From a phage, in the NCBI GenBank assembly GCA_029944565.1, contig GCA_029944565.1_4115.1: a DNA stretch of 64,000 bases, one strand, 5' to 3'. Positions 44,108 to 54,914 of the stretch are shown piece by piece. The first letter of the stretch is position 1, and each line of letters starts with the position of its first letter. The position numbers and the translations under genes were made by a program. The notes beneath the pieces were generated by a model. It was not told the DNA's origin, made no database searches, and was given only the letters and a program-made list of their open reading frames with translations.

Positions 44108-44110
44108 GTA

Positions 44111-44467: not shown

Positions 44468-44496
44468 GATTTCAATCCTCAGTTAAGATATAAAAT

Positions 44497-44524
44497 ATTA
44501 TACACTATCTTTCAGTACTGTCAA
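44497..44524 (-). promoter_or_regulatory. early promoter (TTGACA-16-TATAAT)
   Basis: perfect hexamers, no leader hairpin. Confidence 0.65.
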
Positions 44525-44530
44525 TACTTT

Positions 44531-44788
44531 TTATCTCATAGATCTATGCCAACAATTACGCGGGGGACGTTTAAAAGTACTATCATGATCCTCCTGGCAA
44601 GTTATGCAGTACTTACATCCCTTAACGGCCTGGCGTCGATTCTCAGGGATTATATCGCCGCAGTCGAGGCAATGTATCAGTGATTCTATTTGTGCGTTAA
44701 TTTGCTTTCTAGCGTGGTTAACGGCGGCCTGAATCACTGCGTTAATCTCGTCTTGTTCGGCCCCATCTTTCGCGAATCCTACAGCCAT
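44531..44788 (-). CDS. TraR/DksA-family C4 zinc-finger protein (putative)
   Basis: CLDCG-N17-CKYCITC spacing (CxxC-N17-CxxC). Confidence 0.5.
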   Translation of the reverse strand: MAVGFAKDGAEQDEINAVIQAAVNHARKQINAQIESLIHCLDCGDIIPENRRQAVKGCKYCITCQEDHDSTFKRPPRNCWHRSMR

Positions 44789-45039
44789 TATTTTAACCTC
44801 ATTATAAAAATACTATAGTACTGTAATGCGACAATAATATTACTTGTTCTTACTTTTTCCAATCCACATGATACCACATATTCATCCCCATATGTGCGAA
44901 ACGATACACCATGAAAATTTTTATACACTTGCACTACTAATCATAACCTTTCGTCTAACCAACTGCATAGAATTATACTACTTTACGCAAATTGATCAAG
45001 TATTGATCAGATCATTTTTTGATCAATATTATACAGTTA

Positions 45040-45115
45040 CATTTGTGCACCCTATGGGTTAGTGACGTTCTCGTCTTGATGTAAGTATTATGCCAGTACT
45101 TGATGATATTGTCAA
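45040..45115 (-). promoter_or_regulatory. orphan promoter (TTGACA-17-CATAAT) with conserved transcribed core, no ORF downstream
   Basis: hexamers at 45087-45115; transcript begins acttacatcaagacgagaacgtcactaacccatagggtgc. Confidence 0.5.
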
Positions 45116-45119
45116 TAGT

Positions 45120-45317
45120 TTATTTTAATTTTTTTCTGTCATTGATTAATGCTTTCAGTACTATACTAATGATTTGCAATGATTCATCAATGACTATAAA
45201 ATTATTCTCTTTCATTAGATGATAGTTACCATTGATTGTATATTCTAAGGAGTACTGTTTACGTTTAATTTTTGATAATGTTTCTATTTGTTTTTGTACT
45301 GATTTCATGCTAATCAT
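45120..45317 (-). CDS. hypothetical protein
   Basis: 65-aa ORF. Confidence 0.5.
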   Translation of the reverse strand: MISMKSVQKQIETLSKIKRKQYSLEYTINGNYHLMKENNFIVIDESLQIISIVLKALINDRKKLK

Positions 45318-45393
45318 TGTTAAACGTCCTGTAACGCATTCTAACGAGATAAACGGTTTAGTACTGGCATTGTATAGGGTAATGAATTAAAGC

Positions 45394-45401
45394 CCACCAG
45401 C
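45394..45401. other. Chi octamer (CCACCAGC)
   Basis: exact 8-mer within hairpin agcccaccagcg... Confidence 0.45.
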
Positions 45402-45422
45402 GTTAACCAGTGGGCTATAATC

Positions 45423-45557
45423 TTACATCTTGCGGATAATCTTAACAGTATCTTTCACCGATTTACCGTCTTGCTGGCATTGCTCGATCATTGCGTATTG
45501 TTCTGCTGTAAGATCCTCGCCAGTTTTTGCCAGTACTGCGTCGATGAATGAATCCAG
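45423..45557 (-). CDS. small hypothetical protein (~44 aa)
   Basis: downstream of promoter 45602..45629; below ORF-track cutoff. Confidence 0.4.
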   Translation of the reverse strand: MDSFIDAVLAKTGEDLTAEQYAMIEQCQQDGKSVKDTVKIIRKM

Positions 45558-45601
45558 TGCGATCATTTTGTTTCTCTCTTAGGTTAAGTTAACTACTGTT
45601 T

Positions 45602-45629
45602 ATAAAACTTATTATACAGTACTATCAAA
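45602..45629 (-). promoter_or_regulatory. early promoter (TTGACA-16-TATAAT)
   Basis: perfect hexamers. Confidence 0.65.
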
Positions 45630-45665
45630 CGTTGTCAATATCTTTAATAGTACTGGTAATATATT

Positions 45666-45845
45666 TTAGCGGTAATCGTCGTATGCTTTATTCACCTGGC
45701 GAATGTAACTTTCAAAGGCTTCGTCTACCGTTTCATACTCCCGAACATAATCACCATAGGAAACTACATACATACCTTTTTGATCTTCAAACGACATGAT
45801 GATAGAATCCAGGCCGATGATTTCAGTTTTTGCGATGATAGCCAT
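45666..45845 (-). CDS. hypothetical protein
   Basis: start MAIIAKTEI with SD aaggaa; track ORF extends upstream. Confidence 0.55.
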   Translation of the reverse strand: MAIIAKTEIIGLDSIIMSFEDQKGMYVVSYGDYVREYETVDEAFESYIRQVNKAYDDYR

Positions 45846-45879
45846 TTTTAATTCCTTAGTAGTGTAGTTGATAAAAGTT

Positions 45880-45908
45880 ATTATGCCAGTACTATCAATC
45901 AGTGTCAA
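45880..45908 (-). promoter_or_regulatory. early promoter (TTGACA-17-CATAAT)
   Basis: same subtype as 45087..45115 and 48826..48854. Confidence 0.55.
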
Positions 45909-45928
45909 TAGTACTGTGATAATATTTT

Positions 45929-46141
45929 TTAGTTAATAATAGTCAGTGTAAAATTGTAATCCCCTGCCTGGTATAGTACTTTATCGCCGAACGTTCCAAC
46001 ACGTTTCATATTGCAATAGATACCCATAACACTTTTTACATCTTTGATATTCCGAACGCCAGTAATATCCTTGTTTAAATGATCGTGATCAGAAAATAAA
46101 ACTTGTTTTGCATTTTTCAGTACAGTGCAGATATTAGCCAT
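45929..46141 (-). CDS. hypothetical protein
   Basis: 70-aa ORF. Confidence 0.6.
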   Translation of the reverse strand: MANICTVLKNAKQVLFSDHDHLNKDITGVRNIKDVKSVMGIYCNMKRVGTFGDKVLYQAGDYNFTLTIIN

Positions 46142-46161
46142 TTTGTTTTCTCTCTGTTAGT

Positions 46162-46221
46162 GGGGAGAATCATTTCTCCCCTTCATGTAACTTATTATAC
46201 AGTACTATAATCTATTGTCAA
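46162..46221 (-). promoter_or_regulatory. early promoter (TTGACA-16-TATAAT) plus leader hairpin
   Basis: hairpin ggggagaa-tcat-ttctcccc. Confidence 0.7.
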
Positions 46222-46235
46222 ACTATTTTTTTATA

Positions 46236-46577
46236 TTATTCGAAATCTTCTGGACCGGACTGATAATCATCTTCACCGTATGCACTTTCTAACTTCTCGC
46301 CAGTGTGATCATCAGTTAGTGAATCATCCTCATAATTCACGTCTACGCCTACAATGTAAAACTGGCTATCGTCTGGATCATTGAAATTAATTTTCTGAAT
46401 GTTTACAATAACTGTATTGATGCCCAGGACACAGCCATCAGCCGTTACAAAGTACTGATAGTTTTCACAACCGCCTGAATTGAAACCGTAATTGATTTCG
46501 GCCCGACCATCATTTAAACGCAGTGCCTGGGCGATGATTTCGTTTTCAAAGTTAGATTGAGCAATTGAGATAGTCAT
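46236..46577 (-). CDS. hypothetical acidic protein
   Basis: 113-aa ORF, Asp/Glu-rich C-terminus. Confidence 0.6.
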   Translation of the reverse strand: MTISIAQSNFENEIIAQALRLNDGRAEINYGFNSGGCENYQYFVTADGCVLGINTVIVNIQKINFNDPDDSQFYIVGVDVNYEDDSLTDDHTGEKLESAYGEDDYQSGPEDFE

Positions 46578-46597
46578 GATTCGTTTCCTTATTACTA

Positions 46598-46656
46598 GGG
46601 GAAACCGTTTCCCCTTTCGATGTAAAACATTATACGCTTATTGAGATAGTTTGCAA
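46598..46656 (-). promoter_or_regulatory. early promoter (TTGCAA-16-TATAAT) plus leader hairpin
   Basis: hairpin ggggaaa-ccg-tttcccc. Confidence 0.65.
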
Positions 46657-46709
46657 GTACTTTTTATCAAATACTTTAAAATAGTTTTCAGTACTCAAAC
46701 ATTATACAA

Positions 46710-46792
46710 TAGATACACTCCTGCACCCTGTGGGCTAGTGAGCTATCTCTCAATGATTATATAATAACAAAATGGCTGACCGAAGTCAACCA
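46710..46792 (-). promoter_or_regulatory. conserved intergenic element, copy 4 (promoter TTGACT-17-TATTAT inside UUCG hairpin, then core)
   Basis: core at 46710-46755; hairpin tggctgac-cgaa-gtcaacca. Confidence 0.5.
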
Positions 46793-46802
46793 CTTTTTTC
46801 AT

Positions 46803-46937
46803 TTATTTTTTAGCTTTAAGTACTGCGGCCTTTCGTGTCATGCCTTGCTTGATGTATTCCTGTACTTTCGCTTTACGTGCTTTAGCTTTATCTGCTTTAG
46901 TTTTAGGAGTACTGTAAACTATACCGTTAGGATTCAT
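46803..46937 (-). CDS. small basic hypothetical protein (44 aa)
   Basis: Lys/Ala-rich; follows stop of upstream micro-ORF directly. Confidence 0.35.
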   Translation of the reverse strand: MNPNGIVYSTPKTKADKAKARKAKVQEYIKQGMTRKAAVLKAKK

Positions 46938-47027
46938 TTAAATCACCATAAAGAATAGATAGGTTACTAACAACGCCGCGATCAATGCACCGACCAGGGC
47001 CGAACTGTAATAAGCTAAGGATCTCAT
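46938..47027 (-). CDS. hydrophobic micro-protein (29 aa, MRSLAYYSSALVGALIAALLV...)
   Basis: ATGA overlap with 47024..47176; single predicted TM helix. Confidence 0.35.
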   Translation of the reverse strand: MRSLAYYSSALVGALIAALLVTYLFFMVI

Positions 47028-47176
47028 TTTTTAGCCTGAAAATAATGTTTAATTTGTGCGGCGGTCAGTGCACAATTACGCAGGAAGTTTTCTGTATAAC
47101 TGCGGCGAGTATTAAAAGAGAATTGACCTTTACCGTTACCGATAGTTACATCCATCCGAGCGTTGTATTGTTTCAT
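47024..47176 (-). CDS. small hypothetical protein (50 aa)
   Basis: start MKQYNARMDV with SD aggag; track ORF extended through leader hairpin. Confidence 0.5.
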   Translation of the reverse strand: MKQYNARMDVTIGNGKGQFSFNTRRSYTENFLRNCALTAAQIKHYFQAKK

Positions 47177-47194
47177 TTTGTATCTCCTGTTATC

Positions 47195-47254
47195 GGGGAG
47201 AATCATTTCTCCCCTTCATGTAAAACATTATACAGTACTAAAAACTAATTGCAA
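47195..47254 (-). promoter_or_regulatory. early promoter (TTGCAA-16-TATAAT) plus leader hairpin
   Basis: hairpin ggggagaa-tcat-ttctcccc. Confidence 0.65.
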
Positions 47255-47257
47255 GTA

Positions 47258-47500
47258 TTATTTTAAACTTTGTGCGACTAATTTCGCACGGTCAATCATA
47301 TACTGCCATTTTTGGATCTCTTCTGGCAGAAAACGATATTCACCAATAACAATAGTGATACACTTTTCAGCTTGGTCAATGTATGTAGTATCAATCTCGA
47401 CTTGAACGGGTACACGTTCGCCGTATTCAGTCCCTGGGATAATGCAATCATTATCATAAGTTACAGTAGTAGTAGTGTCTTTGATTAAAATTGTTTCCAT
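47258..47500 (-). CDS. hypothetical protein
   Basis: 80-aa ORF. Confidence 0.6.
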   Translation of the reverse strand: METILIKDTTTTVTYDNDCIIPGTEYGERVPVQVEIDTTYIDQAEKCITIVIGEYRFLPEEIQKWQYMIDRAKLVAQSLK

Positions 47501-47523
47501 TATACTTTCCTCGTTAGGTGTAA

Positions 47524-47579
47524 GGGGAACGTTTTCCCCTTCATGTAAAACATTATACAGTACTGAAAACTAATTGCAA
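47524..47579 (-). promoter_or_regulatory. early promoter (TTGCAA-16-TATAAT) plus leader hairpin
   Basis: hairpin ggggaa-cgtt-ttcccc. Confidence 0.65.
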
Positions 47580-47779
47580 GTACTTTCCGAAAGTAAATGC
47601 TCATACGCTGCATTAACTACATTTTCAATAACCGACTGTACAGAAAGATCCCCCACGTCCTGGCTATAGTAGAAATTGCTTACAGTGGTGTCATCGTATG
47701 CAAATACTTTACCAGGTACTGCATCAATCACATACATATTAACCTTTAAGATGTCGATCTTATCCTGTACAGTAAGCAT
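47570..47779 (-). CDS. hypothetical protein
   Basis: 69-aa ORF. Confidence 0.5.
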   Translation of the reverse strand: MLTVQDKIDILKVNMYVIDAVPGKVFAYDDTTVSNFYYSQDVGDLSVQSVIENVVNAAYEHLLSESTCN

Positions 47780-47784
47780 ATTAA

Positions 47785-48057
47785 TTAACCTTTTAAGTAC
47801 TGGCTTAAGTAGTCTTTTTGATCTTCGGTGATTGCAGTCATCTTCCCTAGTACTGGATTGATGATATAATCCCCTGTAACGTCCTGTAACGCATTCTCAG
47901 GCGGTTTAACGGCTGGGGTAGCCATAGCCATTGCCTGGACTTGTTCGACGCTGTAACGCTCATAAAGGCGGCATTCTTCCGGTGTTAACATAGCATCAGT
48001 ACGCTTCATCGGTTTAATGATGCTTTCGATCTCATTCAGTACTTGATTAACGTTCAT
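47785..48057 (-). CDS. hypothetical protein
   Basis: 90-aa ORF. Confidence 0.55.
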   Translation of the reverse strand: MNVNQVLNEIESIIKPMKRTDAMLTPEECRLYERYSVEQVQAMAMATPAVKPPENALQDVTGDYIINPVLGKMTAITEDQKDYLSQYLKG

Positions 48058-48108
48058 GGTATAATCCCCAATATAAGCGGCCTAAATCGACCGCTAACGA
48101 TGTTTTGA

Positions 48109-48378
48109 TTAATAGGTGTAAGGTTGACGCTCAAACAATGATTGTACGCTGTACGCCCCGCTAATGGGCTTCGCTGGCAAATCAATTTTATATTGTTCAC
48201 GCTTAAAGATAATAAAACGGCAATTGTTTTTAACATCAAAATTGATTGAACGTTCCAGGAGTTTTCCATCGTGCACAAATACAAGATAACCGCTTGGTAC
48301 TTGTTTTGTAGAACTGGTTGCAACCATAGACCGACGAACATGTGTACCTGCATCGATTAAAGTACTGATATTTTTCAT
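48109..48378 (-). CDS. hypothetical protein
   Basis: 89-aa ORF with SD gagga; preferred over overlapping ORF 48054..48353. Confidence 0.5.
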   Translation of the reverse strand: MKNISTLIDAGTHVRRSMVATSSTKQVPSGYLVFVHDGKLLERSINFDVKNNCRFIIFKREQYKIDLPAKPISGAYSVQSLFERQPYTY

Positions 48379-48458
48379 TTTACTATCCTCTTAAGTTGAT
48401 TTAATTTCTTTCCCCTATGCAGACACTGTATCAAAGTATCTGCATAAAGTAAAGCTAA

Positions 48459-48782
48459 TTAAAGATCTTTTTTACGTTTTACATCCTGTACAGTACAATG
48501 CAACGGGATAGACAAATCATTACACAAACGAGTAAGGGAGGTTTCAACAGTATCAAGCCCGTCTACTGATTCCTTTAAGAGATCAAACGCCGTTTGTTGA
48601 TATGCATCTTCATAGCCATAAGTAAATGATTCAACCGCCAGATCATTCAAACCGTTATCCAGTTCAACGCTTACATGACAAGAATGATAAGTATTGCCAT
48701 ATGAATCAGTCCAACGTTTACCGTCAACATTGATTGCATGGATTGCAGCCAGGGAAACGGTATTGATGATAGTTTTAGCCAT
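48459..48782 (-). CDS. hypothetical protein (paralog of 41499..41822)
   Basis: shared RWTDSYGNTYHSC, FTYGY, DVKRKKD. Confidence 0.6.
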   Translation of the reverse strand: MAKTIINTVSLAAIHAINVDGKRWTDSYGNTYHSCHVSVELDNGLNDLAVESFTYGYEDAYQQTAFDLLKESVDGLDTVETSLTRLCNDLSIPLHCTVQDVKRKKDL

Positions 48783-48825
48783 TTTAGTATTCCTTAAATT
48801 AATATGTGTCGTCTTGATAAAATCT

Positions 48826-48854
48826 ATTATGCCAGTACTATCAAACTATGTCAA
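48826..48854 (-). promoter_or_regulatory. early promoter (TTGACA-17-CATAAT)
   Basis: hexamers on minus strand. Confidence 0.55.
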
Positions 48855-48873
48855 TAGTACTGTGATAATATTT

Positions 48874-49086
48874 TTACTTACTTTCTTTCGCTGCTTTATA
48901 TGTTGCCACTGCCATAACCACATCAGCACGAACAAAGTTTTTAACCGTGTCACTGTAATAATTGATCGCATCATCTATATCTGCGAACGTCCGATACATA
49001 CCGCACCAAGATACTTTATAACCTTCTTTCACTTCTGCCAGTTTAACGATAGTCTTGTTAACTTTGATTTTAGTAATGATAGCCAT
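48874..49086 (-). CDS. hypothetical protein
   Basis: start MAIITKIKV; track ORF extended through leader. Confidence 0.55.
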   Translation of the reverse strand: MAIITKIKVNKTIVKLAEVKEGYKVSWCGMYRTFADIDDAINYYSDTVKNFVRADVVMAVATYKAAKESK

Positions 49087-49105
49087 TTTAGTTTCCTCAT
49101 TATCA

Positions 49106-49164
49106 GGGAGAACCATTTCTCCCCTTGATGTAATGTATTATACTTTATTCGATTTACTTTGCAA
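49106..49164 (-). promoter_or_regulatory. early promoter (TTGCAA-16-TATAAT) plus leader hairpin
   Basis: hairpin gggagaaccatttctcccc. Confidence 0.65.
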
Positions 49165-49173
49165 GTACTTTTT

Positions 49174-49401
49174 TTAATTTAATTCATCCAGGCAAAGGAT
49201 ACGCTCAACGCCCAAATCAGTTAAACTAATCGACGGCACTTGATAGGTTTCAATGTATGCTACACTTGCCCACTGACCGAACTCATTAACGGCCCAGGTA
49301 TTCATTGCATTTTGCAATTCCGCACCTGCCTTGTTAGTAATGACTGCAACTACTTGTTCGTTGCCAGTAGTACCAGATACGCGAGTAATGATAATAGCCA
49401 T
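49174..49401 (-). CDS. hypothetical protein
   Basis: start MAIIITRVSG. Confidence 0.55.
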   Translation of the reverse strand: MAIIITRVSGTTGNEQVVAVITNKAGAELQNAMNTWAVNEFGQWASVAYIETYQVPSISLTDLGVERILCLDELN

Positions 49402-49421
49402 TGTTTTGATTCCTTTGATTT

Positions 49422-49484
49422 GGAAGGAGAACCGTTTCCCCCTCTCGATGTAAAACATTATACGCTAATCTCTTAATCGTGCAA
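49422..49484 (-). promoter_or_regulatory. early promoter (TTGCAC-16-TATAAT) plus leader hairpin
   Basis: hexamers and hairpin ggagaaccgtttcccc. Confidence 0.6.
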
Positions 49485-49549
49485 GTACTTTTTATTACTT
49501 TTTGCAAAATACTTTAAACGCTCTCAATCGCATTCTAACGACCTTAACG

Positions 49550-49557
49550 CCACCAGC
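49550..49557. other. Chi octamer (CCACCAGC)
   Basis: exact 8-mer; partner in opposite orientation at 49612. Confidence 0.5.
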
Positions 49558-49611
49558 TAGGGCGATGTATCAGATAATCAGTTTAATGCGTTAGAATCGA
49601 TTCTAGGCGGT

Positions 49612-49619
49612 GCTGGTGG
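49612..49619. other. Chi octamer (GCTGGTGG)
   Basis: exact 8-mer. Confidence 0.5.
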
Positions 49620-49635
49620 ACTGGAATACTACAGA

Positions 49636-49666
49636 CACAAAAAAGCCCACTGTTTAAGGTGGGCTA
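49636..49666 (-). terminator. rho-independent terminator
   Basis: hairpin agcccac-tgtttaag-gtgggct followed by UUUUUUGUGU on minus strand. Confidence 0.65.
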
Positions 49667-49686
49667 GTGATTCAGTACTTTAATTG

Positions 49687-50169
49687 TTATGCTTCAACTT
49701 TGCGATGAGCTTCGATCCATTCCTCGCGAGTCATACCGCTTTCTTTGATAGCGTCCAGTACTACCGCAATGCAGTTACCGCGTACAGGAATCATATGTTC
49801 TTCCCCGTTATCAAGTACTACAGTAACACGTTCTTGAATCCATTTTTTAGGTTTAGATTCTGGCTTATCTTCACCATACTTAACCGCCAGGGCTTTATGT
49901 GCCATTTCTACAACTACTTCCAGATCCAATCCAGCCACCGCCGCCTGGATACTTTCGATTGTTGCTTGCAGTTCGGCTTCACGGGCTTTTTTCTGTTCTT
50001 CCAGTTCTGCTACCTTTTTGGCTTGCAGTTCTTTAGCTTCACTGTACGCAATGTTAAAATTGTTGCGTACTGCTTTCATGGTATCGTTATCCAGGTCAGC
50101 CAACAATTCAGCAGCAATAACAGTATCGTTTGAAATCAGTGCTTTCAGGAATGATTTTACATTAGCCAT
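49687..50169 (-). CDS. hypothetical protein with central coiled-coil-like segment
   Basis: start MANVKSFLKAL with SD gagga; Ala/Glu/Lys-rich heptad-like middle. Confidence 0.6.
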   Translation of the reverse strand: MANVKSFLKALISNDTVIAAELLADLDNDTMKAVRNNFNIAYSEAKELQAKKVAELEEQKKAREAELQATIESIQAAVAGLDLEVVVEMAHKALAVKYGEDKPESKPKKWIQERVTVVLDNGEEHMIPVRGNCIAVVLDAIKESGMTREEWIEAHRKVEA

Positions 50170-50292
50170 TTTATAAATCCTCAATTAAAGTTTAGTTTAC
50201 GTTTATTAGTGTATCAAAGTTTTATCGACGTGTCCAGTTTTTCGTTCGACTTACTGGCGGTCTACTTAGTGCTCCCCGTCTTGATGTAATAC

Positions 50293-50320
50293 ATTCTACG
50301 CCTTTTTGTGGTAATGTCAA
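50293..50320 (-). promoter_or_regulatory. promoter (TTGACA-16-TAGAAT) with ~110-nt leader
   Basis: leader starts ...catcaagacgg... like other conserved-core transcripts. Confidence 0.5.
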
Positions 50321-50369
50321 CTACTATTTTAAAACTATTTTTAAAGTATGCAGTACTACGATAATACAA

Positions 50370-50401
50370 AAACAAAAAAGCCCACTGTTTAAGGTGGGCT
50401 A
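50370..50401 (-). terminator. rho-independent terminator (identical copy of 49636..49666)
   Basis: same hairpin agcccactgtttaaggtgggct plus U-run. Confidence 0.65.
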
Positions 50402-50417
50402 GTGATTCAGTACTATA

Positions 50418-50717
50418 TTATAAACAGTTAATTACTCCGGTGTGCGTTACTTTCTCAGTATCCATAACCGTGACCGATCCACGCTTAGTACTTACATCGT
50501 AATAAATTGTCGTGCTACCTTTTTCGTCTTCTTCATGGAACGGGCCGCTTTTAAATGCTTCTGGCTGGATCTCTAAATCCTTTAAAACAATCTCGCCAGT
50601 ACTTTCATCTGTCATCGCAACAGTGCACTGAATGAATTTTTCACTACTTACATCTAACGACGCATTAACAGCGAAAGAGGAAACAGATAAAGCCAGGGCG
50701 ATGATTGCAATTTTCAT
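50418..50717 (-). CDS. secreted/periplasmic protein (predicted signal peptide)
   Basis: N-terminus MKIAIIALALSVSSFAVNA with AxA-type cleavage site. Confidence 0.55.
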   Translation of the reverse strand: MKIAIIALALSVSSFAVNASLDVSSEKFIQCTVAMTDESTGEIVLKDLEIQPEAFKSGPFHEEDEKGSTTIYYDVSTKRGSVTVMDTEKVTHTGVINCL

Positions 50718-50728
50718 TTGATTATCCT

Positions 50729-50796
50729 TAGTTACCAGGGGGAACCGCTCCCCCGTGCGATGTAAAATATTGTACAGTACTAAAAACTAATTGCAA
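50729..50796 (-). promoter_or_regulatory. early promoter (TTGCAA-16-TACAAT) plus leader hairpin
   Basis: hairpin ggggga-accgc-tccccc. Confidence 0.6.
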
Positions 50797-50801
50797 GTAC
50801 T

Positions 50802-51038
50802 TTATGATTTTTTATAAAACATTTCGGCAGTAATATTTTTACCCGTTGGTTGTACTTTATCCAGAATTTTTTGATGCCCTGGCCGTCCAAATGAATATGA
50901 TCCGTAAACCGTAAACCAGTAGTTACCCTCAGTGTTTACATGTACAGCACAATAGGGAACGCCCCGCGATTCATCACCAATAAAGTGTGATACCGTTCCC
51001 GTTACATTAGCAGACGTTGATTTGATTTGTTCAAGCAT
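50802..51038 (-). CDS. hypothetical protein
   Basis: 78-aa ORF. Confidence 0.55.
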   Translation of the reverse strand: MLEQIKSTSANVTGTVSHFIGDESRGVPYCAVHVNTEGNYWFTVYGSYSFGRPGHQKILDKVQPTGKNITAEMFYKKS

Positions 51039-51058
51039 TTTCTTATTCCTTAGTTACC

Positions 51059-51114
51059 AGGGGGAACCGCTCCCCCTATGCAAAACATTATACGCGTTTA
51101 AAAACTAATAGCAA
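51059..51114 (-). promoter_or_regulatory. early promoter (TTGCTA-16-TATAAT) plus leader hairpin
   Basis: duplicate of the 50729..50796 block. Confidence 0.6.
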
Positions 51115-51147
51115 GTATTTTAATAAAAAGTATTTGAAAAATAATTG

Positions 51148-51176
51148 TTGACAACTGCATCCAGTACTGGCATAAT
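51148..51176 (+). promoter_or_regulatory. plus-strand promoter (TTGACA-17-CATAAT)
   Basis: hexamers read on plus strand; drives conserved-core transcript. Confidence 0.55.
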
Positions 51177-51182
51177 TACTAC

Positions 51183-51275
51183 ATCAAGACGAAACAGTCA
51201 CTAACCCACCGGGTGCCGAGATCCGTCTATTAAATGATTCAGTACTTAACAATAAAGGGGATCAATCGATCCCCT
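51183..51275 (+). ncRNA. candidate small RNA carrying the conserved promoter-proximal core
   Basis: no ORF; GAC-gaaaca-GTC hairpin then ACTAACCCACCGGGTGC; ends at hairpin ggggatc-aatc-gatcccc. Confidence 0.35.
51248..51275 (-). terminator. candidate rho-independent terminator
   Basis: same hairpin read on minus strand is followed by UUUAUUGUU after stop of 51281..51502. Confidence 0.45.
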
Positions 51276-51280
51276 ATGTA

Positions 51281-51502
51281 TTACTTAGTAAGGTATAAAC
51301 AGAAGTCACCTTTATTTGCTACGCCGCCAGTGTAACGCGATGAATAGTTAGAAACGTCCTGGACTTCTGCTATTACCAGTGTATCATCATTCAATTCGTC
51401 GCAGAAGCAAACGGCTGGATCTTTTACGCCGATCTTGTCGGCATGTTCCCGCATAGATTTAACCAGTGCTTCCAGTTGAGAAAGAGTAGTGATATTAGCC
51501 AT
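51281..51502 (-). CDS. hypothetical protein
   Basis: start MANITTLSQ; track ORF extended through leader. Confidence 0.55.
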   Translation of the reverse strand: MANITTLSQLEALVKSMREHADKIGVKDPAVCFCDELNDDTLVIAEVQDVSNYSSRYTGGVANKGDFCLYLTK

Positions 51503-51521
51503 TGTATTTTCCTCATTACCA

Positions 51522-51580
51522 GGGAGAACCATTTCTCCCCTCTATGTAAACTATTATACAGTACTGAAAACTAATTGCAA
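51522..51580 (-). promoter_or_regulatory. early promoter (TTGCAA-16-TATAAT) plus leader hairpin
   Basis: hairpin gggagaaccatttctcccc. Confidence 0.65.
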
Positions 51581-51586
51581 GTACTT

Positions 51587-51775
51587 TTAATTAAATTCCA
51601 TAAAATCATTCTCAACGTGCACAACAATTTGATTGTTTTTAAAGTCCGCAGCGAACTCGATGCAATCATAAACCGCTTTTTGTGTTACAATGCTATGAGT
51701 ACCAATCGGATTAATAGGGGATTGAATTGTTTCAATCTCGTTCCCTTGCTCATTAACAATTAAAATATTAAACAT
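51587..51775 (-). CDS. hypothetical protein
   Basis: 62-aa ORF; SD aggag. Confidence 0.5.
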   Translation of the reverse strand: MFNILIVNEQGNEIETIQSPINPIGTHSIVTQKAVYDCIEFAADFKNNQIVVHVENDFMEFN

Positions 51776-51813
51776 CGCTGTTACTCCTGGGTAGTGTTAA
51801 CTCGATATAAAGT

Positions 51814-51841
51814 ATTATACGCCTTTATTGCTTAGTGTCCA
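51814..51841 (-). promoter_or_regulatory. early promoter (TGGACA-16-TATAAT)
   Basis: hexamers on minus strand. Confidence 0.5.
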
Positions 51842-52038
51842 GTACTTTTTAAAACATATTCATAAACACTACGCACATCATTGATCATCGCCTGGCGGTT
51901 AGCAGGTAACGCACCAGGATCGCCACTATCCCAGGCATTGATAAAACTCCCCAAATCATGAAAGATTTTATTCTGTAAGCCGATTAACTGCAATTCTTTT
52001 TCTTCAAGCTCTTTGATACGGTCAATTAAAAGACTCAT
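51832..52038 (-). CDS. hypothetical protein
   Basis: start MSLLIDRIKE with RBS ctgaggattatcta identical to next gene. Confidence 0.5.
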   Translation of the reverse strand: MSLLIDRIKELEEKELQLIGLQNKIFHDLGSFINAWDSGDPGALPANRQAMINDVRSVYEYVLKSTGH

Positions 52039-52055
52039 TAGATAATCCTCAGTAC

Positions 52056-52337
52056 TTAATTGTAAGATCCGCAACGGTTACAATAGTGCCCGTCTTCCTC
52101 GTCAACGAATTGACCGACGAAATTATCTACTTTCTCTTTGAGATTCTGATAATTGTTTTCAACTTCCTTTAGACGTTCCTGGTAGTATTCCAGGGCTTGC
52201 ACATACGCCGCCTCAGCCGTTTTCGCTCTTAAGGCTAAATTCATGCCACGCGTTTCATCGTACATCCAAAAGCCATCGGTGCACTCACTGATTGACAATG
52301 ATTTGGTTAACACTTTATAGTCAATTACTTTGCTCAT
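52056..52337 (-). CDS. hypothetical protein
   Basis: start MSKVIDYKV; C-terminal CNRCGSYN. Confidence 0.5.
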   Translation of the reverse strand: MSKVIDYKVLTKSLSISECTDGFWMYDETRGMNLALRAKTAEAAYVQALEYYQERLKEVENNYQNLKEKVDNFVGQFVDEEDGHYCNRCGSYN

Positions 52338-52393
52338 TAGATAATCCTCAGTAAAGGCGGGAACCACACCCGCCATTGATTCAGTACTGAATG

Positions 52394-52633
52394 TTACATT
52401 CCAACCATTGCAGCACGGATCGCCGTAGTGCTATACTTGAATCCGTCCGGTGTTGTAGTAGTACCGTTGGCTTTTAATCTGCGGTACATACATTGGGCCG
52501 CAATATCTTTAGTTTTACATTGTGCGATGCAACTTTGAGCAAGCCGATATAATGACTCACCGTTATTAATCCACAATGAAACATTCCAATGAGTTTTGTT
52601 TTTGTGCCCGTTGTAAGTTTTAGTAGTAGCCAT
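52394..52633 (-). CDS. hypothetical protein (paralog of 53077..53316)
   Basis: shared GHKNKTxWNVSLWINN and TPDGFKYSTTAIRAAMVGM. Confidence 0.6.
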   Translation of the reverse strand: MATTKTYNGHKNKTHWNVSLWINNGESLYRLAQSCIAQCKTKDIAAQCMYRRLKANGTTTTPDGFKYSTTAIRAAMVGM

Positions 52634-52655
52634 TTTTAAATCCTCGTTTAATTGA

Positions 52656-52717
52656 GCGGGAGAACCATTCCCCCGCCTCGATATAAAGTATTATACGCTT
52701 TTAAACTTAGTTTGCAA
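52656..52717 (-). promoter_or_regulatory. early promoter (TTGCAA-16-TATAAT) plus leader hairpin
   Basis: hairpin gcgggagaaccattcccccgc. Confidence 0.65.
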
Positions 52718-52724
52718 GTACTTT

Positions 52725-52991
52725 TTATTCAAGTACTGCGATCTTTTTAATACGGTACACGGTCACGCGGTTGCCCTTTCGGTCGAGCTTTATTTCTACC
52801 ACTCGACGCGATACACTATCAGGACTTTTCAACGCCGCTAACCAGTACTGTAATGATCTGGCGGTACTACGCTTTACAATGGCCCAACGTTTACCACGTT
52901 CCGATTGTACGCCCATATCTTTAAACGTTGCCCCGTCCTGGCGTGCGGCGATCCGAGCTTGTTCACGCGTCGCAAAATACTTAATATTCAT
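52725..52991 (-). CDS. hypothetical protein (paralog of 41008..41403)
   Basis: shared FATREQARIAAR and DRKGNRVTVY; start MNIKYFATRE. Confidence 0.6.
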   Translation of the reverse strand: MNIKYFATREQARIAARQDGATFKDMGVQSERGKRWAIVKRSTARSLQYWLAALKSPDSVSRRVVEIKLDRKGNRVTVYRIKKIAVLE

Positions 52992-53022
52992 GCTGTTGCC
53001 CTTATCGTTGGTGTATGAATAA

Positions 53023-53060
53023 AACACTATTATAAAGTACTATCGCAAAAAATGATAGTA
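53023..53060. promoter_or_regulatory. perfect palindrome AGTACTATC-N9-GATAGTACT next to a -10-like TATAAT
   Basis: 9-bp inverted arms upstream of 52725..52991; candidate operator. Confidence 0.35.
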
Positions 53061-53076
53061 CTTTAAATCTATTCTA

Positions 53077-53316
53077 TTACATTCCAACCATTGCAGCACG
53101 GATCGCCGTAGTACTGTACTTGAATCCGTCCGGCGTTTTATCTTGTCCAGTCTGTTCTAAAAATAGCATCATATGACGGGCCGCATCATTGCGATTAGTG
53201 TTAGCGGCAATAAAGTCCTGGGCCAACCGGTATAATGATTCATCGTTATTAATCCAAAGGCTTACATTCCATTGAGTTTTGTTTTTGTGACCTAAGAACA
53301 TTTTTGATTTAGCCAT
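53077..53316 (-). CDS. hypothetical protein (paralog of 52394..52633)
   Basis: identical C-terminal 19 aa. Confidence 0.6.
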   Translation of the reverse strand: MAKSKMFLGHKNKTQWNVSLWINNDESLYRLAQDFIAANTNRNDAARHMMLFLEQTGQDKTPDGFKYSTTAIRAAMVGM

Positions 53317-53337
53317 TTTTAAATCCTCTTAATTATA

Positions 53338-53396
53338 GTGGGGAACTATTCCCCACCTGATGTAAAACATTATACGCTTTTAAACTTAGTTTGCAA
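53338..53396 (-). promoter_or_regulatory. early promoter (TTGCAA-16-TATAAT) plus leader hairpin
   Basis: hairpin gtgggga-actat-tccccac. Confidence 0.65.
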
Positions 53397-53410
53397 GTAC
53401 TTTTTAAAAC

Positions 53411-53773
53411 TTATTCGTAAATCTTGCCACTGTCAGCCCATACCAGGAAACGAGGCATATTATCCCATGCATCTTGCTTTAAATTTAAACCGTGTAATAC
53501 TTCTGTACTTTCCATTCCTGGTACTGGTTTACTATACACCGCAAATAGTTCACCCATATACTGATAAGCCATCGTTAAATCACTGGCGATCATCTTATGG
53601 ATCATCGCATCAAGCATCACGGTAGCGGCGTATTGTTCACGCTTAAGCGGTAACATTGCAATAAGTTCCCGATAAGCTGAAATGTGAATTTTTACCGTTT
53701 CAGCCGGAAGACCTTTCATCTCTTCACGGAAGTTAACCAGGTTAGCAATAATTTTATTGATTTGAGTCGCCAT
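53411..53773 (-). CDS. hypothetical protein
   Basis: start MATQINKII; track ORF extended through leader. Confidence 0.6.
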   Translation of the reverse strand: MATQINKIIANLVNFREEMKGLPAETVKIHISAYRELIAMLPLKREQYAATVMLDAMIHKMIASDLTMAYQYMGELFAVYSKPVPGMESTEVLHGLNLKQDAWDNMPRFLVWADSGKIYE

Positions 53774-53797
53774 CGTTTTCATCTCTCTTACAGTGTA

Positions 53798-53856
53798 GCG
53801 GGAAGTGTTCCCGCTCTCGATGTAAAACATTATACGCTTTTAAACATAGTTTGCAA
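53798..53856 (-). promoter_or_regulatory. early promoter (TTGCAA-16-TATAAT) plus leader hairpin
   Basis: hairpin agcggga-agtgt-tcccgct. Confidence 0.65.
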
Positions 53857-53886
53857 GTACTTTCTACATGTACTTTTAAAATAGTT

Positions 53887-53975
53887 TTCTTTCTATATAG
53901 GAGTACTATTATTCAGTACTGCAACCATCCAGGGGAACTATCTTTCTATATAGGAGTACTATGATTCAGTACTGA
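53887..53975. repeat. two ~33-bp direct repeats (tctttctatataggagtactatNattcagtactg)
   Basis: copies at ~53889-53920 and ~53942-53975. Confidence 0.6.
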
Positions 53976-54136
53976 ATCAATCCACCAAATCATCCCGATA
54001 CCCCGTAAAACGGCCTCAGACGCATTCTAACGCATTAATACACCTAAGCTATACATTTGCACCATTCCAATCATTCCAGGGCTTTACGGGCCGTTTAAAC
54101 GCGTTAAATTATTTTCAATTATTTTGTTTTTAGCTA

Positions 54137-54164
54137 TTGACTCAGTACTGAAAAAGCGTATAAT
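54137..54164 (+). promoter_or_regulatory. plus-strand promoter (TTGACT-16-TATAAT)
   Basis: hexamers on plus strand; followed by conserved-core transcript. Confidence 0.55.
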
Positions 54165-54351
54165 TACTATATAGACGCGAGAAAGCGGATACCCCAGGGG
54201 GTGGGAAGATCCGTCCAAAATTCAAGATATAAAAAAAGGATAGACTCCCGCACCCTAGCAGGTTAACGCACTTTCTCAGTACTGAATTATAGTACCATAG
54301 TCCGGCCCAGGATGGCAAGCAAATTAATTAAAACTTTTTTCATCCAGGGTA

Positions 54352-54380
54352 TTGCTTTATTTTTCCAGTACTGCTATAAT
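54352..54380 (+). promoter_or_regulatory. plus-strand promoter (TTGCTT-17-TATAAT)
   Basis: followed by GTC-gagaaa-GAC hairpin and CCCACCGGGTGCATAGTTGTATCTA core. Confidence 0.5.
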
Positions 54381-54477
54381 ATTTTTATCAAGTCGAGAAA
54401 GACTCTAGCCCACCGGGTGCATAGTTGTATCTAAAATTCAGTACTAGATTATTTTTTAAAATTATTCATCCAAGCGG

Positions 54478-54506
54478 TTGACATACCAGGCGAAAACGGG
54501 GATAAT
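54478..54506 (+). promoter_or_regulatory. plus-strand promoter (TTGACA-17-GATAAT)
   Basis: hexamers on plus strand, no ORF downstream. Confidence 0.5.
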
Positions 54507-54599
54507 GATTCCAGATTCAGAAAAATCTAACTCCAGATACTGCGGGGAAACCATCCCCACGCGGTAGGGGAACTATTGGAAAAAATAAAATAAAAATTT

Positions 54600-54770: not shown

Positions 54771-54914
54771 GGTTACTACACCCAAAATCCGTCAGTACTA
54801 TACCATAGATCTATCTTTTGAAAGGGAGTATTCAGTACTGCCATCATAGCCCTCACTATGTTACCCTAGGAGGATGAAGACTATCATGTAGTACTGAATA
54901 CTGTTAGGGGGAAT

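What the first reader, a model, noticed from the sequence alone, without database searches (positions are those of the whole stretch)
49520..49620. Interleaved inverted repeats (pseudoknot-like) built from ACGCATTCTAACG and Chi arms
cgcattctaacg (49528) pairs with cgttagaatcg (49590) and ccaccagc (49550) pairs with gctggtgg (49612), in A-B-A'-B' order. The ACGCATTCTAACG motif recurs at 45336, 54030-54050 and in variants at 35270-35400. This is a repeated protein-binding module or a structured RNA.
Basis: seen in the sequence. Interest (0 to 1): 0.5.

Follow-up and report, generated by a model that had tools for sequence, protein, structure and literature searches.

The report
Chi-site pair in phage terminal repeat
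The supposed pseudoknot is two opposed copies of the E. coli recombination signal Chi in a non-coding spacer; they belong to a conserved, apparently unreported cluster of Chi sites confined to the 20-kb terminal repeat of a jumbo phage, which probably engages the host RecBCD enzyme at the genome ends.

Summary
The repeats are at the stated coordinates: ATTCTAACG (49532) / CGTTAGAAT (49589) and CCACCAGC (49550) / GCTGGTGG (49612), in A-B-A'-B' order. The pseudoknot reading fails.
- Interleaved repeats of this size are as common in shuffled sequence (3 vs mean 1.4).
- Folding energy is ordinary (z -0.7 and -0.1).
- In 12 related phages, 8 of 17 proposed pairs vary, none compensated.
- There is no Rfam match.

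The window comes from an Asteriusvirus jumbo phage close to PBECO4. The segment lies between an intrinsic terminator and one of 15 early promoters, inside the ~20.3-kb direct terminal repeat (35251-55511).

The B arms are true Chi octamers. All 11 Chi sites of the window lie in the repeat (0.2-0.3 expected). In PBECO4, 10 of 22 lie in 6% of the genome.

A second, sequence-diverged lineage (Klebsiella fENko-Kae01, Salmonella 7t3) has 14-15 Chi in its repeat, where Chi is the most enriched octamer. A properly oriented Chi lies 0.4-1.4 kb from each physical end.

My best explanation is DNA-level RecBCD signals, analogous to the Chi-rich terminal redundancy of phage P1. Function is inferred, not shown.

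The ACGCATTCTAACG motif is a real low-copy repeat restricted to the terminal repeat. It is weakly conserved and its role is unknown.

The parts
35251..55511 (.). Direct terminal repeat (DTR) equivalent of the phage genome, 20,261 bp. The right physical terminus maps to 35251 and the left terminus to 55511; the window is in reverse orientation relative to fEgEco12 and vB_Ec-M-J.
   Evidence: The termini of fEgEco12 map to window 55511 and about 35251 at 94% and 91% identity. Its 20,993-bp DTR was confirmed by PhageTerm and restriction digests (PMC13070987). vB_Ec-M-J carries an annotated DTR at 1-21525. Sharanji has a 20,668-bp DTR (PMC11895373).
49550..49557 (-).
   Evidence: It is invariant in 12 of 12 relatives.
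49612..49619 (+). It is oriented for RecBCD entering from the left physical end (55511 side) and is the second such site after 54927.
   Evidence: It is lost in 4 of 12 relatives (GCTGACGG in 121Q; GCTAGTGG in ph0011, G17 and UE-S1) with no change in arm B.
49528..49540 (+).
   Evidence: It is the most variable stretch of the spacer in relatives.
49583..49605 (-). Arm A'. The reverse complement reads ATTCTAACGCATTAA, a 15-mer shared with 54024-54038. It overlaps the 14-bp palindrome TAGAATCGATTCTA (49592-49605).
   Evidence: The palindrome is perfect in only 5 of 12 relatives, and G17 has a 12-bp deletion here.
49644..49665 (-). Intrinsic terminator of the upstream gene (7-bp stem followed by a T run).
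   Evidence: The homologous site is annotated as a terminator in G17. It is conserved in relatives.
49457..49510 (-). Early sigma70-type promoter module: -10 TATAAT (49462..49457), -35 TTGCAC (49484..49479), and an A/T-rich upstream tract.
   Evidence: It is one of 15 copies of TACTTGC[AC]-N14-19-TATAAT, all on the - strand and all inside the DTR. It is perfectly conserved in relatives. The generic scan did not call it, because the -35 matches only 3 of 6 positions.
49174..49401 (-). Downstream small early gene (75 aa, unknown function).
   Evidence: phrog_13850, unknown function.
49687..50169 (-). Upstream early gene (160 aa, unknown function).
   Evidence: phrog_27871; only a sub-threshold DUF3846 match.
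36613..36620 (-). Chi, non-coding; the first properly oriented Chi, 1.36 kb from the right terminus.
36837..36844 (-). Chi, in coding sequence.
38414..38421 (-). Chi, in coding sequence.
40315..40322 (-). Chi, in coding sequence.
42663..42670 (-). Chi, non-coding, upstream of an early promoter.
43931..43938 (-). Chi, in coding sequence.
45394..45401 (-). Chi built into a terminator hairpin (45388-45413).
   Evidence: The same terminator design occurs in fENko-Kae01.
54915..54934 (.). Inverted Chi pair with a 4-nt loop (CCACCAGCacaaGCTGGTGG), 577 bp from the left terminus.
   Evidence: It is conserved in Asteriusvirus relatives and in fENko-Kae01 and 7t3.
45334..45346 (+). Exact copy of ACGCATTCTAACG, in the leader of gene 45120-45317 (-).
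54020..54038 (+). ACGCATTCTAACGCATTAA: two ACGCATT units 10 bp apart, in the non-coding left-terminal region.
35275..35404 (+). ACGCAT(T) variants within 25-150 bp of the right physical terminus.
   Evidence: They are not conserved at the equivalent terminus of fENko-Kae01.

Best explanation
The segment 49520-49620 is a non-coding DNA spacer. It lies between the intrinsic terminator of one small early gene and the sigma70-type promoter of the next, inside the ~20.3-kb direct terminal repeat (DTR) of an Asteriusvirus jumbo coliphage close to PBECO4.

Its two 'B arms' do not pair with each other. They are two separate, oppositely oriented Chi sites (5'-GCTGGTGG-3'), members of an island of 11 Chi sites that exists only in the DTR.

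The inferred mechanism has four steps:
1. After injection, host RecBCD loads on a free end of the linear genome.
2. It unwinds and degrades inward until it meets a Chi approached from its 3' side.
3. It then nicks the DNA and loads RecA on the 3' tail.
4. Because the tail lies in the DTR, it has a homologous partner at the other end of the same molecule, or in a sister genome. This yields circles or concatemers, limits degradation, and possibly limits CRISPR spacer capture.

Nine - strand sites serve RecBCD entering at the right end; the first lies 1.36 kb in. The + strand sites at 54927 (0.58 kb in) and 49612 serve the left end.

The A arms are copies of a low-copy, DTR-restricted repeat, (A/T)CGCATTCTAACG(CATTAA), with no detectable constraint. 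The interleaved topology is coincidental.

Shown here: the anatomy, enrichment, confinement to the DTR, conservation and orientation of the Chi sites. Inferred: that RecBCD acts on them and what the phage gains.
For: Identity and context:
- The window matches Asteriusvirus PBECO4 and relatives at 96-100%.
- The DTR was mapped from the experimentally confirmed termini of fEgEco12.
- A terminator lies at 49665-49644, and the promoter belongs to a family of 15 copies, all in the DTR.

Chi enrichment in the window:
- 11 sites against 0.32 expected, all within 36613-54934, and none in the other 43.7 kb.
- In an unbiased 8-mer scan of the DTR, Chi is the second independent motif (11 vs 0.22 expected).
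- Among the 168 octamers of identical composition it is the outlier: 11 against a mean of 0.3, with the next highest at 4.

Chi enrichment in other genomes:
- In the whole PBECO4 genome, 10 of 22 Chi lie in the DTR, which is 6.0% of the genome (binomial P = 2e-7).
- Seven Asteriusvirus relatives show the same cluster and almost no Chi in the flanks.
- In fENko-Kae01 (PhageTerm DTR 1-19736), 14 Chi lie in the DTR against 2 in the next 25 kb, and Chi is the most enriched octamer.
- In Salmonella 7t3, all 15 Chi lie inside the DTR equivalent and none in the 19 kb outside.
- That lineage shares only short promoter and RBS patches with the window DTR, so most of its Chi sites are at non-homologous positions.

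Conservation and placement:
- Chi octamers are conserved above background: 9-11 of 11 identical, against 47-83% for all octamers.
- 7 of 11 sites are non-coding, although about 68% of the DTR is coding.
- Negative control: phage A7_1, which shares early-gene patches with the DTR, has 0 Chi in 45 kb.

Orientation rule and precedent:
- P1-family phages concentrate Chi near their terminal redundancy and need RecBCD and RecA (bioRxiv 10.1101/2021.07.08.451572 and PMC12315714).

Against pairing.
Against: - No experiment links these phages to RecBCD. The genome papers read here do not mention Chi.
- The phage encodes its own recombination proteins: UvsX/RecA-like, gp46/47-like and endonuclease VII. 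It may therefore not need the host pathway.
- The 9:2 strand polarity is no stronger than the baseline for G-rich octamers in this DTR. The other 167 same-composition octamers split 36:10, so polarity is not independent evidence.
- Outside the DTR, PBECO4 still has 12 Chi, which is several-fold over a simple expectation. Part of the signal may come from codon usage (GCT GGT GG).
- The + strand Chi of this very spacer is dispensable in 4 of 12 relatives.
- It is unknown whether the phage DNA is modified, or its ends protein-protected, in a way that blocks RecBCD.
- The DTR position in the window's own phage is inferred by homology, not from reads.
Confidence: 0.7

Rival explanations
1. A structured RNA. 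Read-through or antisense transcripts of 49520-49620 fold into an H-type pseudoknot (A:A' and B:B') that regulates the neighbouring early genes.
For: Both helices can be drawn, with 9 and 8 perfect pairs. The minimum-energy fold of either strand uses the A:A' helix. Terminator read-through could put the segment into RNA.
Against: - None of the 17 pairs shows a compensatory change in 12 relatives. Eight pairs vary, and all but one change break the pair.
- B' is lost in 4 relatives with B unchanged, and G17 deletes 12 nt of A'.
- Fold z-scores are -0.73 and -0.09.
- There is no Rfam family; the only hit is a sub-threshold Trp_leader match on the terminator.
- The topology is no commoner than in shuffles.
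- The 32-nt loop between B and A' is atypical for an H-type pseudoknot.
- The Kae01/7t3 lineage keeps Chi sites but not this arrangement.
Confidence: 0.04
2. An operator for a phage or host DNA-binding protein. The ACGCATT(CTA)ACG units, phased 10 bp apart, and the palindrome TAGAATCGATTCTA bind a regulator of the adjacent early promoter, or a protein acting at the genome ends.
For: - The 13-mer with up to 1 mismatch occurs 3 times in the whole PBECO4 genome, all in the DTR. ACGCATTAA occurs 7 times, 5 of them in the DTR.
- ACGCATT density is 0.54/kb in the DTR against 0.09/kb outside.
- Units are spaced 10 bp apart at 54020/54030.
- A' is nearly invariant in 11 of 12 relatives.
- ACGCAT variants lie 25-150 bp from the right terminus.
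Against: - Arm A is the most variable part of the spacer. The palindrome is perfect in only 5 of 12 relatives, and G17 deletes it.
- The copies sit in different contexts: upstream of a promoter, in a 5' leader, in a coding-region look-alike at 47889, and in the terminal non-coding DNA.
- There is no ACGCATT enrichment in the Kae01 DTR, and the motif is absent from its terminus.
- With only 3-5 copies, duplication of intergenic DNA is an adequate explanation.
Confidence: 0.12
3. The GCTGGTGG octamers are enriched in the DTR for a reason unrelated to RecBCD. For example, they could be a recognition element for a phage protein or part of promoter and terminator architecture, or a by-product of composition and codon usage plus duplication.
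For: - In Kae01, four Chi sit in promoter spacers just upstream of the -10, and one Chi-containing terminator design is shared between lineages.
- The DTR is more GC-rich than the rest of the window (38.4% vs 32.6%) and its sense strand is G-rich.
- 36613 and 42663 lie in paralogous intergenic modules.
- 12 Chi also occur outside the DTR in PBECO4.
Against: - The sequence is exactly the host's Chi, in phages of three hosts in Enterobacterales (Escherichia, Salmonella, Klebsiella).
- The other 167 same-composition octamers average 0.3 copies.
- The contexts are heterogeneous: coding, promoter spacer, terminator, terminal hairpin, and plain spacer at 25-65 nt from promoters.
- Related early-gene cassettes in phage A7_1 carry no Chi.
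- The confinement follows the DTR boundaries exactly in two lineages.
Confidence: 0.1

Closest known systems
Chi (crossover hotspot instigator) sites of E. coli, recognised by RecBCD
   Same: The octamer 5'-GCTGGTGG-3' is identical. The hosts are Enterobacterales. A site oriented for RecBCD entry lies near each DNA end.
   Different: Here the sites sit in a 34-38% GC virulent phage genome and are concentrated about 13-fold in its terminal repeat, mostly in non-coding DNA. In E. coli, Chi frequency is largely explained by codon usage in ORFs (bioRxiv 10.1101/2021.07.08.451572). Activity was not tested here.
Chi-rich terminal redundancy of phage P1 and relatives (P7, D6, NGUA22); Subramaniam & Smith, as cited in PMC12315714 and bioRxiv 10.1101/2021.07.08.451572
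   Same: Chi is the most, or nearly the most, over-represented octamer. It is concentrated where the linear virion DNA is terminally repeated. The proposed use is RecBCD/RecA recombination between the repeats after injection.
   Different: - P1 is temperate, packaged by headful from pac, and has variable 5-10 kb redundancy. It has about 50 Chi that are nearly randomly oriented and spread over 20-40 kb.
- The phages here are virulent jumbo phages with fixed 20-21 kb direct terminal repeats and 11-15 Chi strictly inside the repeat, mostly co-oriented with transcription.
- They also have a conserved inverted Chi pair about 0.5 kb from one terminus, and their own UvsX-type and gp46/47-type recombination genes.
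- P1's dependence on RecBCD is experimentally known; here it is not.
Lambdoid phages with abundant Chi (Genome Res 2025, PMC12315714)
   Same: These are phage genomes that carry many host Chi sites and depend on RecBCD-promoted recombination for growth.
   Different: In those phages Chi is spread over the genome relative to cos packaging, not confined to a long terminal repeat. The phage type is unrelated.
T5 terminal repeat (first-step-transfer DNA)
   Same: It is a long direct terminal repeat full of early genes with strong sigma70 promoters. The first 30 kb of T5 has 2 Chi, both inside the 10.2-kb repeat and co-oriented.
   Different: T5 has only two sites, too few to call an island. T5 has its own documented pre-early functions (A1, A2). 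No relation to RecBCD was examined here.
H-type RNA pseudoknots
   Same: The order of complementary segments is interleaved (A-B-A'-B').
   Different: There is no covariation, no excess stability and no family match. The probable location is untranscribed, and the central loop is long (32 nt).

Membership tests
Chi site (RecBCD recombination hotspot) | Exact octamer 5'-GCTGGTGG-3' | tested here: met
   Perfect octamers lie at 49550-49557 (-) and 49612-49619 (+), with 9 more in the DTR.
Chi site (RecBCD recombination hotspot) | The host enzyme recognises this sequence (RecBCD of E. coli and related enterics) | not testable with these tools
   The hosts written in the records are E. coli, Salmonella and Klebsiella. 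That their RecBCD recognises GCTGGTGG rests on established knowledge, not on a test here.
Chi site (RecBCD recombination hotspot) | Orientation relative to a double-strand end: the entry end lies to the 3' side of GCTGGTGG | tested here: met
   With termini at 35251 and 55511, the 9 - strand sites face the right end and the 2 + strand sites face the left end. The nearest active site is 1.36 kb and 0.58 kb from the respective end. Caveat: the polarity matches the baseline strand composition.
Chi site (RecBCD recombination hotspot) | Stimulates RecBCD nicking, RecA loading and recombination | not testable with these tools
   This needs enzyme assays or genetics.
P1-type Chi-enriched terminal redundancy | Chi among the most over-represented octamers | tested here: met
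   It is the second independent motif in the window DTR and the top motif in the Kae01 DTR. It is the outlier among same-composition octamers.
P1-type Chi-enriched terminal redundancy | Chi concentrated in or near the terminal repeats | tested here: met
   Window: 11 of 11 in the DTR. PBECO4: 10 of 22 in 6% of the genome (P = 2e-7). Kae01: 14 against 2. 7t3: 15 against 0.
P1-type Chi-enriched terminal redundancy | Phage growth or circularisation depends on RecBCD, Chi recognition and RecA | not testable with these tools
   No host-mutant data for Asteriusvirus were found in the library.
P1-type Chi-enriched terminal redundancy | Near-random orientation of Chi (as described for P1) | tested here: not met
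   The split is 9:2 (window), 12:2 (Kae01) and 14:1 (7t3). This is a difference from P1, though composition explains it.
Structured RNA / H-type pseudoknot | Two interleaved helices possible in the sequence | tested here: met
   However, the frequency equals that in shuffles.
Structured RNA / H-type pseudoknot | Base pairs maintained by compensatory substitutions in relatives | tested here: not met
   None of the 17 pairs is compensated. Eight vary, and all but one change are disruptive.
Structured RNA / H-type pseudoknot | Folding energy beyond composition-matched shuffles | tested here: not met
   z = -0.73 (- strand) and -0.09 (+ strand). The fold program does not model pseudoknots.
Structured RNA / H-type pseudoknot | Match to a described RNA family | tested here: not met
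   The only Rfam hit is a sub-threshold Trp_leader match on the terminator.
Structured RNA / H-type pseudoknot | The segment is transcribed | tested here: inconclusive
   It lies after a terminator and before the next promoter on the gene strand. Read-through cannot be excluded, and there are no expression data.

The most novel reading that the evidence does not exclude
The terminal-repeat-confined Chi island, of which this spacer's opposed Chi pair is a part, is a selected adaptation of virulent jumbo phages of Enterobacterales (Asteriusvirus and the fENko-Kae01/7t3 lineage). It recruits host RecBCD-RecA to the ends of the injected genome. This converts an anti-phage nuclease into the engine that joins the two 20-kb repeats into circles or concatemers, and limits end degradation and CRISPR spacer capture. 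It would be direct selection for Chi in a virulent phage, with a built-in geometry: an inverted Chi pair about 0.5 kb from one end and a co-oriented array reaching to 0.4-1.4 kb from the other.
Probability: 0.5. Interest if true: 0.65.

Novelty: new member of a known kind. Interest (0 to 1): 0.45.

Why it matters
Whether Chi is ever directly selected as a recombination signal is an old argument. The alternative is that it is merely a by-product of codon usage, and so far P1 is the main case for selection.

A sharp Chi island that follows the boundaries of a fixed terminal repeat gives a clean second case. It occurs in AT-rich virulent jumbo phages of three host genera, mostly in non-coding DNA.

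It also yields simple tests: host rec mutants, Chi-less phage, and early junction formation.

It bears on three practical questions:
- how very large linear phage genomes survive RecBCD;
- how their long terminal repeats are used after injection;
- how host recombination status may affect jumbo phages considered for therapy.

For the original claim the outcome is negative. There is no new RNA structure here.

Tried and rejected
- My first whole-genome assembly assumed the window was identical to PBECO4. It is not: identity is 96-99.9%, the match is mosaic, and offsets drift by about 860 bp. I rebuilt the PBECO4 genome from the record itself.
- The IMG/VR search with the upstream protein returned a single locus, 121Q. 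I took relatives from the annotated phage collection instead.
- The pseudoknot was rejected on covariation, energy, Rfam and chance frequency.
- The generic sigma70 scan did not call the promoter at 49457-49484, because its -35 matches only 3 of 6 positions. I accept it only because it belongs to a 15-member conserved family and is perfectly conserved.
- Pfam and PHROGs give no function for the two flanking genes.
- I considered ACGCAT motifs as a terminus or packaging signal. They sit 25-150 bp from the right terminus, but the equivalent terminus of fENko-Kae01 lacks them while sharing the CCT|TAGC cut site. I did not pursue this.
- I first read Chi polarity (9:2) as evidence for selected orientation, then withdrew that. 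Same-composition octamers show the same 78% strand bias.
- A literature search for the Chi-like variant GCTAGTGG returned only primer sequences. I make no claim about residual activity of that variant.
- I considered horizontal acquisition of host DNA as the source of Chi and rejected it. DTR GC is 38%, against about 51% for the host (PMC11895373), and the sites lie in unrelated phage contexts.
Full report
WHAT THE WINDOW IS

Megablast identifies the window as an Asteriusvirus jumbo coliphage. The region 48500-51000 is 100% identical to Escherichia phage PBECO4. Over its whole length, however, the window is a 96-99.9% mosaic relative of that record, not the record itself.

Genes around the finding all lie on the - strand. 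The segment 49520-49620 has no ORF. It lies between two small early genes of unknown function:
- upstream, 49687-50169 (-), 160 aa, phrog_27871;
- downstream, 49174-49401 (-), 75 aa, phrog_13850.

Reading the - strand, the order of features is as follows:
1. An intrinsic terminator at 49665-49644. The homologous site is annotated as a terminator in phage G17.
2. The flagged repeats.
3. An A/T-rich tract.
4. A -35 TTGCAC (49484-49479).
5. A perfect -10 TATAAT (49462-49457).

That promoter is one of 15 copies of TACTTGC[AC]-N14-19-TATAAT in the window. All 15 are on the - strand and all lie between 36137 and 53829.

THE OBSERVATION

The repeats are real:
- ATTCTAACG (49532-49540) against CGTTAGAAT (49589-49597): 9 perfect pairs, about 12 with a bulge.
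- CCACCAGC (49550-49557) against GCTGGTGG (49612-49619): 8 perfect pairs.
- The order is A-B-A'-B'.

ACGCATTCTAACG recurs exactly at 45334 and 54020. The 'variants' at 35270-35400 are only ACGCAT(T) 6-7-mers.

The topology is not special. Interleaved inverted repeats of this size occur 3 times in the window, against a mean of 1.4 (range 0-4) in dinucleotide shuffles.

THE PSEUDOKNOT / STRUCTURED-RNA READING FAILS

I aligned the spacer from 12 Asteriusvirus genomes (alignment A1, 93% mean column identity).
- 8 of 17 pairs vary, and none shows a change on both sides. Every change but one (A-U to G-U) destroys a pair.
- All changes in helix 1 are in arm A.
- All changes in helix 2 are in arm B'. 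B' is lost in 121Q (GCTGACGG) and in ph0011, G17 and UE-S1 (GCTAGTGG), while arm B is invariant in 12 of 12.
- G17 deletes 12 nt of A'.
- Folding energies are ordinary: z = -0.73 for the - strand and -0.09 for the + strand.
- Rfam gives only a sub-threshold hit on the terminator.

THE DECISIVE CONTEXT: A CHI ISLAND CONFINED TO THE TERMINAL REPEAT

GCTGGTGG is the E. coli Chi sequence. It occurs 11 times in this 34.5% GC window against 0.32 expected, and 0 of 100 shuffles reached 11. All 11 lie between 36613 and 54934.

Relatives with determined termini have direct terminal repeats (DTRs) of about 20-21 kb:
- vB_Ec-M-J: annotated DTR at 1-21525.
- fEgEco12: 20,993 bp by PhageTerm, confirmed by restriction digests (PMC13070987).
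- Sharanji: 20,668 bp (PMC11895373).

Mapping the fEgEco12 termini onto the window places the DTR at 35251-55511. The terminal sequences agree at 91-94% over 1.2-1.5 kb, and the first 200 nt at the left end look identical. So all 11 Chi lie in the DTR and none in the other 43.7 kb.

Controls within the window and in PBECO4:
- In an unbiased scan of all 8-mers in the DTR, Chi is the second independent motif, after the palindrome CAGTACTG.
- Among the 168 octamers of identical base composition, Chi has 11 copies. The mean is 0.3 and the next highest is 4.
- In the complete PBECO4 genome, which I rebuilt from the record, 10 of 22 Chi fall in the DTR equivalent (132467-153442). That is 6.0% of the genome (binomial P = 2e-7).

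COMPARATIVE EVIDENCE

- Six to seven Asteriusvirus relatives, each with about 40 kb around the locus, show the same cluster and essentially no Chi in the flanks.
- Chi octamers are conserved above background. They are identical in 9-11 of 11 cases, against 47-83% for all octamers of the DTR.
- Klebsiella phage fENko-Kae01 (annotated PhageTerm DTR 1-19736) has 14 Chi in the DTR against 2 in the next 25 kb. Chi is the single most enriched octamer of its DTR (14 vs 0.2 expected).
- Its relative Salmonella phage 7t3 has 15 Chi, all inside the DTR equivalent, and none in the 19 kb outside.
- The fENko-Kae01/7t3 lineage shares only short promoter and RBS patches with the window's DTR. Most of its Chi sites are therefore at non-homologous positions.
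- There they sit in coding sequence, in a terminator, and four times in promoter spacers just before the -10.
- Both lineages carry an inverted Chi pair with a 4-nt loop about 0.5 kb from the left terminus: 54915-54934 in the window and 484-503 in Kae01.
- Negative control: phage A7_1 (Vequintavirinae), which shares early-gene patches with this DTR, has no Chi in 45 kb.
- In the window, 7 of 11 sites are non-coding, although about 68% of the DTR is coding. That argues against a pure codon-usage origin.

GEOMETRY

With physical ends at 35251 and 55511, the geometry is:
- The nine - strand sites face RecBCD entering at the 35251 end. The first is 1.36 kb in.
- The two + strand sites face RecBCD entering at the 55511 end: 54927 (0.58 kb in) and 49612 (5.9 kb in).

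The finding's arm B is therefore one member of the majority array. Arm B' is the back-up site for the other end, which fits its loss in 4 of 12 relatives.

One caution applies. The 9:2 polarity is no stronger than the 36:10 strand bias of other G-rich octamers in this DTR. I therefore treat the orientation as compatible with function, not as evidence for it.

MECHANISM

Step 1 is shown; steps 2-4 are inferred.
1. Shown: exact Chi sites are enriched, conserved and confined to the terminal repeat, with an active one near each end.
2. Inferred: RecBCD loads on the injected linear DNA and degrades a short, redundant stretch.
3. Inferred: it recognises Chi and loads RecA on a 3' tail.
4. Inferred: the tail's only intramolecular homologue is the other DTR copy. 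This gives circles or concatemers, or at least halts degradation. Less degradation would also mean fewer fragments for CRISPR adaptation.

Confinement to the DTR is what this model predicts, because only there does a Chi-primed end have a partner.

The closest precedent is phage P1 and its relatives. [quoted passage not shown] The differences from P1 are:
- virulent jumbo phages rather than a temperate phage;
- fixed repeats rather than headful redundancy;
- strict confinement of Chi to the repeat;
- co-orientation of most sites;
- a terminal inverted pair;
- phage-encoded recombination genes of the UvsX and gp46/47 types.

I found no paper in the library that mentions Chi in these phages.

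THE A ARMS

(A/T)CGCATTCTAACG(CATTAA) is a real repeat, but low-copy.
- The 13-mer with up to 1 mismatch occurs 3 times in PBECO4, all in the DTR. ACGCATTAA occurs 7 times, 5 in the DTR.
- A 15-mer, ATTCTAACGCATTAA, is shared by 54024 (+) and 49583 (-).
- Units are 10 bp apart at 54020/54030.

Against a function:
- Arm A is the least conserved part of the spacer.
- The palindrome around A' is perfect in only 5 of 12 relatives, and G17 deletes it.
- The copies lie in unlike contexts.
- The Kae01 lineage shows no enrichment and lacks the motif at its terminus.

A protein-binding role is not excluded, but duplication of intergenic DNA is sufficient. I give the binding role 0.12.

VERDICT

- The pseudoknot is rejected.
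- The 'Chi arms' are genuine Chi sites, and their meaning lies in a terminal-repeat Chi island. That island is new for jumbo phages as far as I could find. It is a further member of a kind already proposed for P1.
- Function remains to be tested. The decisive experiments are listed under next steps.

Noticed in passing
window 35251-55511 and genome-wide in PBECO4: The palindrome CAGTACTG (core AGTACT) is hugely over-represented. It has 32 sites in the window DTR (about 130x a first-order expectation) and 191 sites in the PBECO4 genome. It is also enriched in the fENko-Kae01 DTR. Part of the signal comes from the promoter -35 context AAGTACTTGCA, but many copies are free-standing TCAGTACTG. Its role is unknown.
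   Followed up: partly
window 36137-53829, - strand: Fifteen copies of an early promoter module, TACTTGC[AC]-N14-19-TATAAT (often followed by GTTTTACATCGAG), lie on the - strand and all inside the terminal repeat.
   Followed up: partly
window 54915-54934; L017 484-503; L011 578-597: A perfect inverted Chi pair with a 4-nt loop lies 0.48-0.58 kb from the left physical terminus. It is conserved in Asteriusvirus and in the Klebsiella/Salmonella lineage, with different loop and flanks.
   Followed up: partly
window 35251 (right terminus); L017 19736; L011 20993: The right DTR boundary falls at CCT|TAGC in both lineages. It is preceded by an inverted repeat, AAGTCAAGG...CCTTGACTT, and a GATTGGACTATG block. 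This may be the terminase recognition and cut region.
   Followed up: no
window 45388-45413; L017 19340-19363: A terminator hairpin has Chi built into its 3' arm (AGCCCAC TGGTTAACGCTG GTGGGCT on the - strand). A near-identical design occurs in fENko-Kae01.
   Followed up: no
L017 3711, 9192, 16840, 18721: In fENko-Kae01, four Chi octamers sit in promoter spacers immediately upstream of the -10 hexamer.
   Followed up: no
L023 (phage T5) 8127 and 8689: The first 30 kb of T5 contains two Chi sites. Both are co-oriented and both lie inside the 10.2-kb left terminal repeat; there are none in the next 20 kb. This is too few to interpret.
   Followed up: no
whole window versus KC295538: The window is not the deposited PBECO4 sequence but a 92-99.9% mosaic relative with indels; offsets drift by about 860 bp. 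The DTR region is highly mosaic among Asteriusvirus genomes. Two alternative genes occur downstream of the conserved promoter at 49457-49510.
   Followed up: partly
window 53885-53975: A direct repeat of about 35 bp, ctttctatataggagtactat[t/g]attcagtactg, occurs in two copies in the non-coding region upstream of an early promoter. It also scores as an interleaved inverted repeat.
   Followed up: no
window 45325-45345 and 47879-47900: A 20-nt identity, aacgtcctgtaACGCATTct, links a 5' leader (45334 copy of the A motif) and the coding sequence of gene 47785-48057 (PENALQDVTG). This suggests past duplication or recombination between these sites.
   Followed up: no
window 55511-56000 and 53900-55511: About 1.7 kb at the left end of the DTR is free of genes; in fEgEco12 the first annotated gene starts at 1689. 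It is dense in short repeats (gattac / cactact series just outside the terminus).
   Followed up: no
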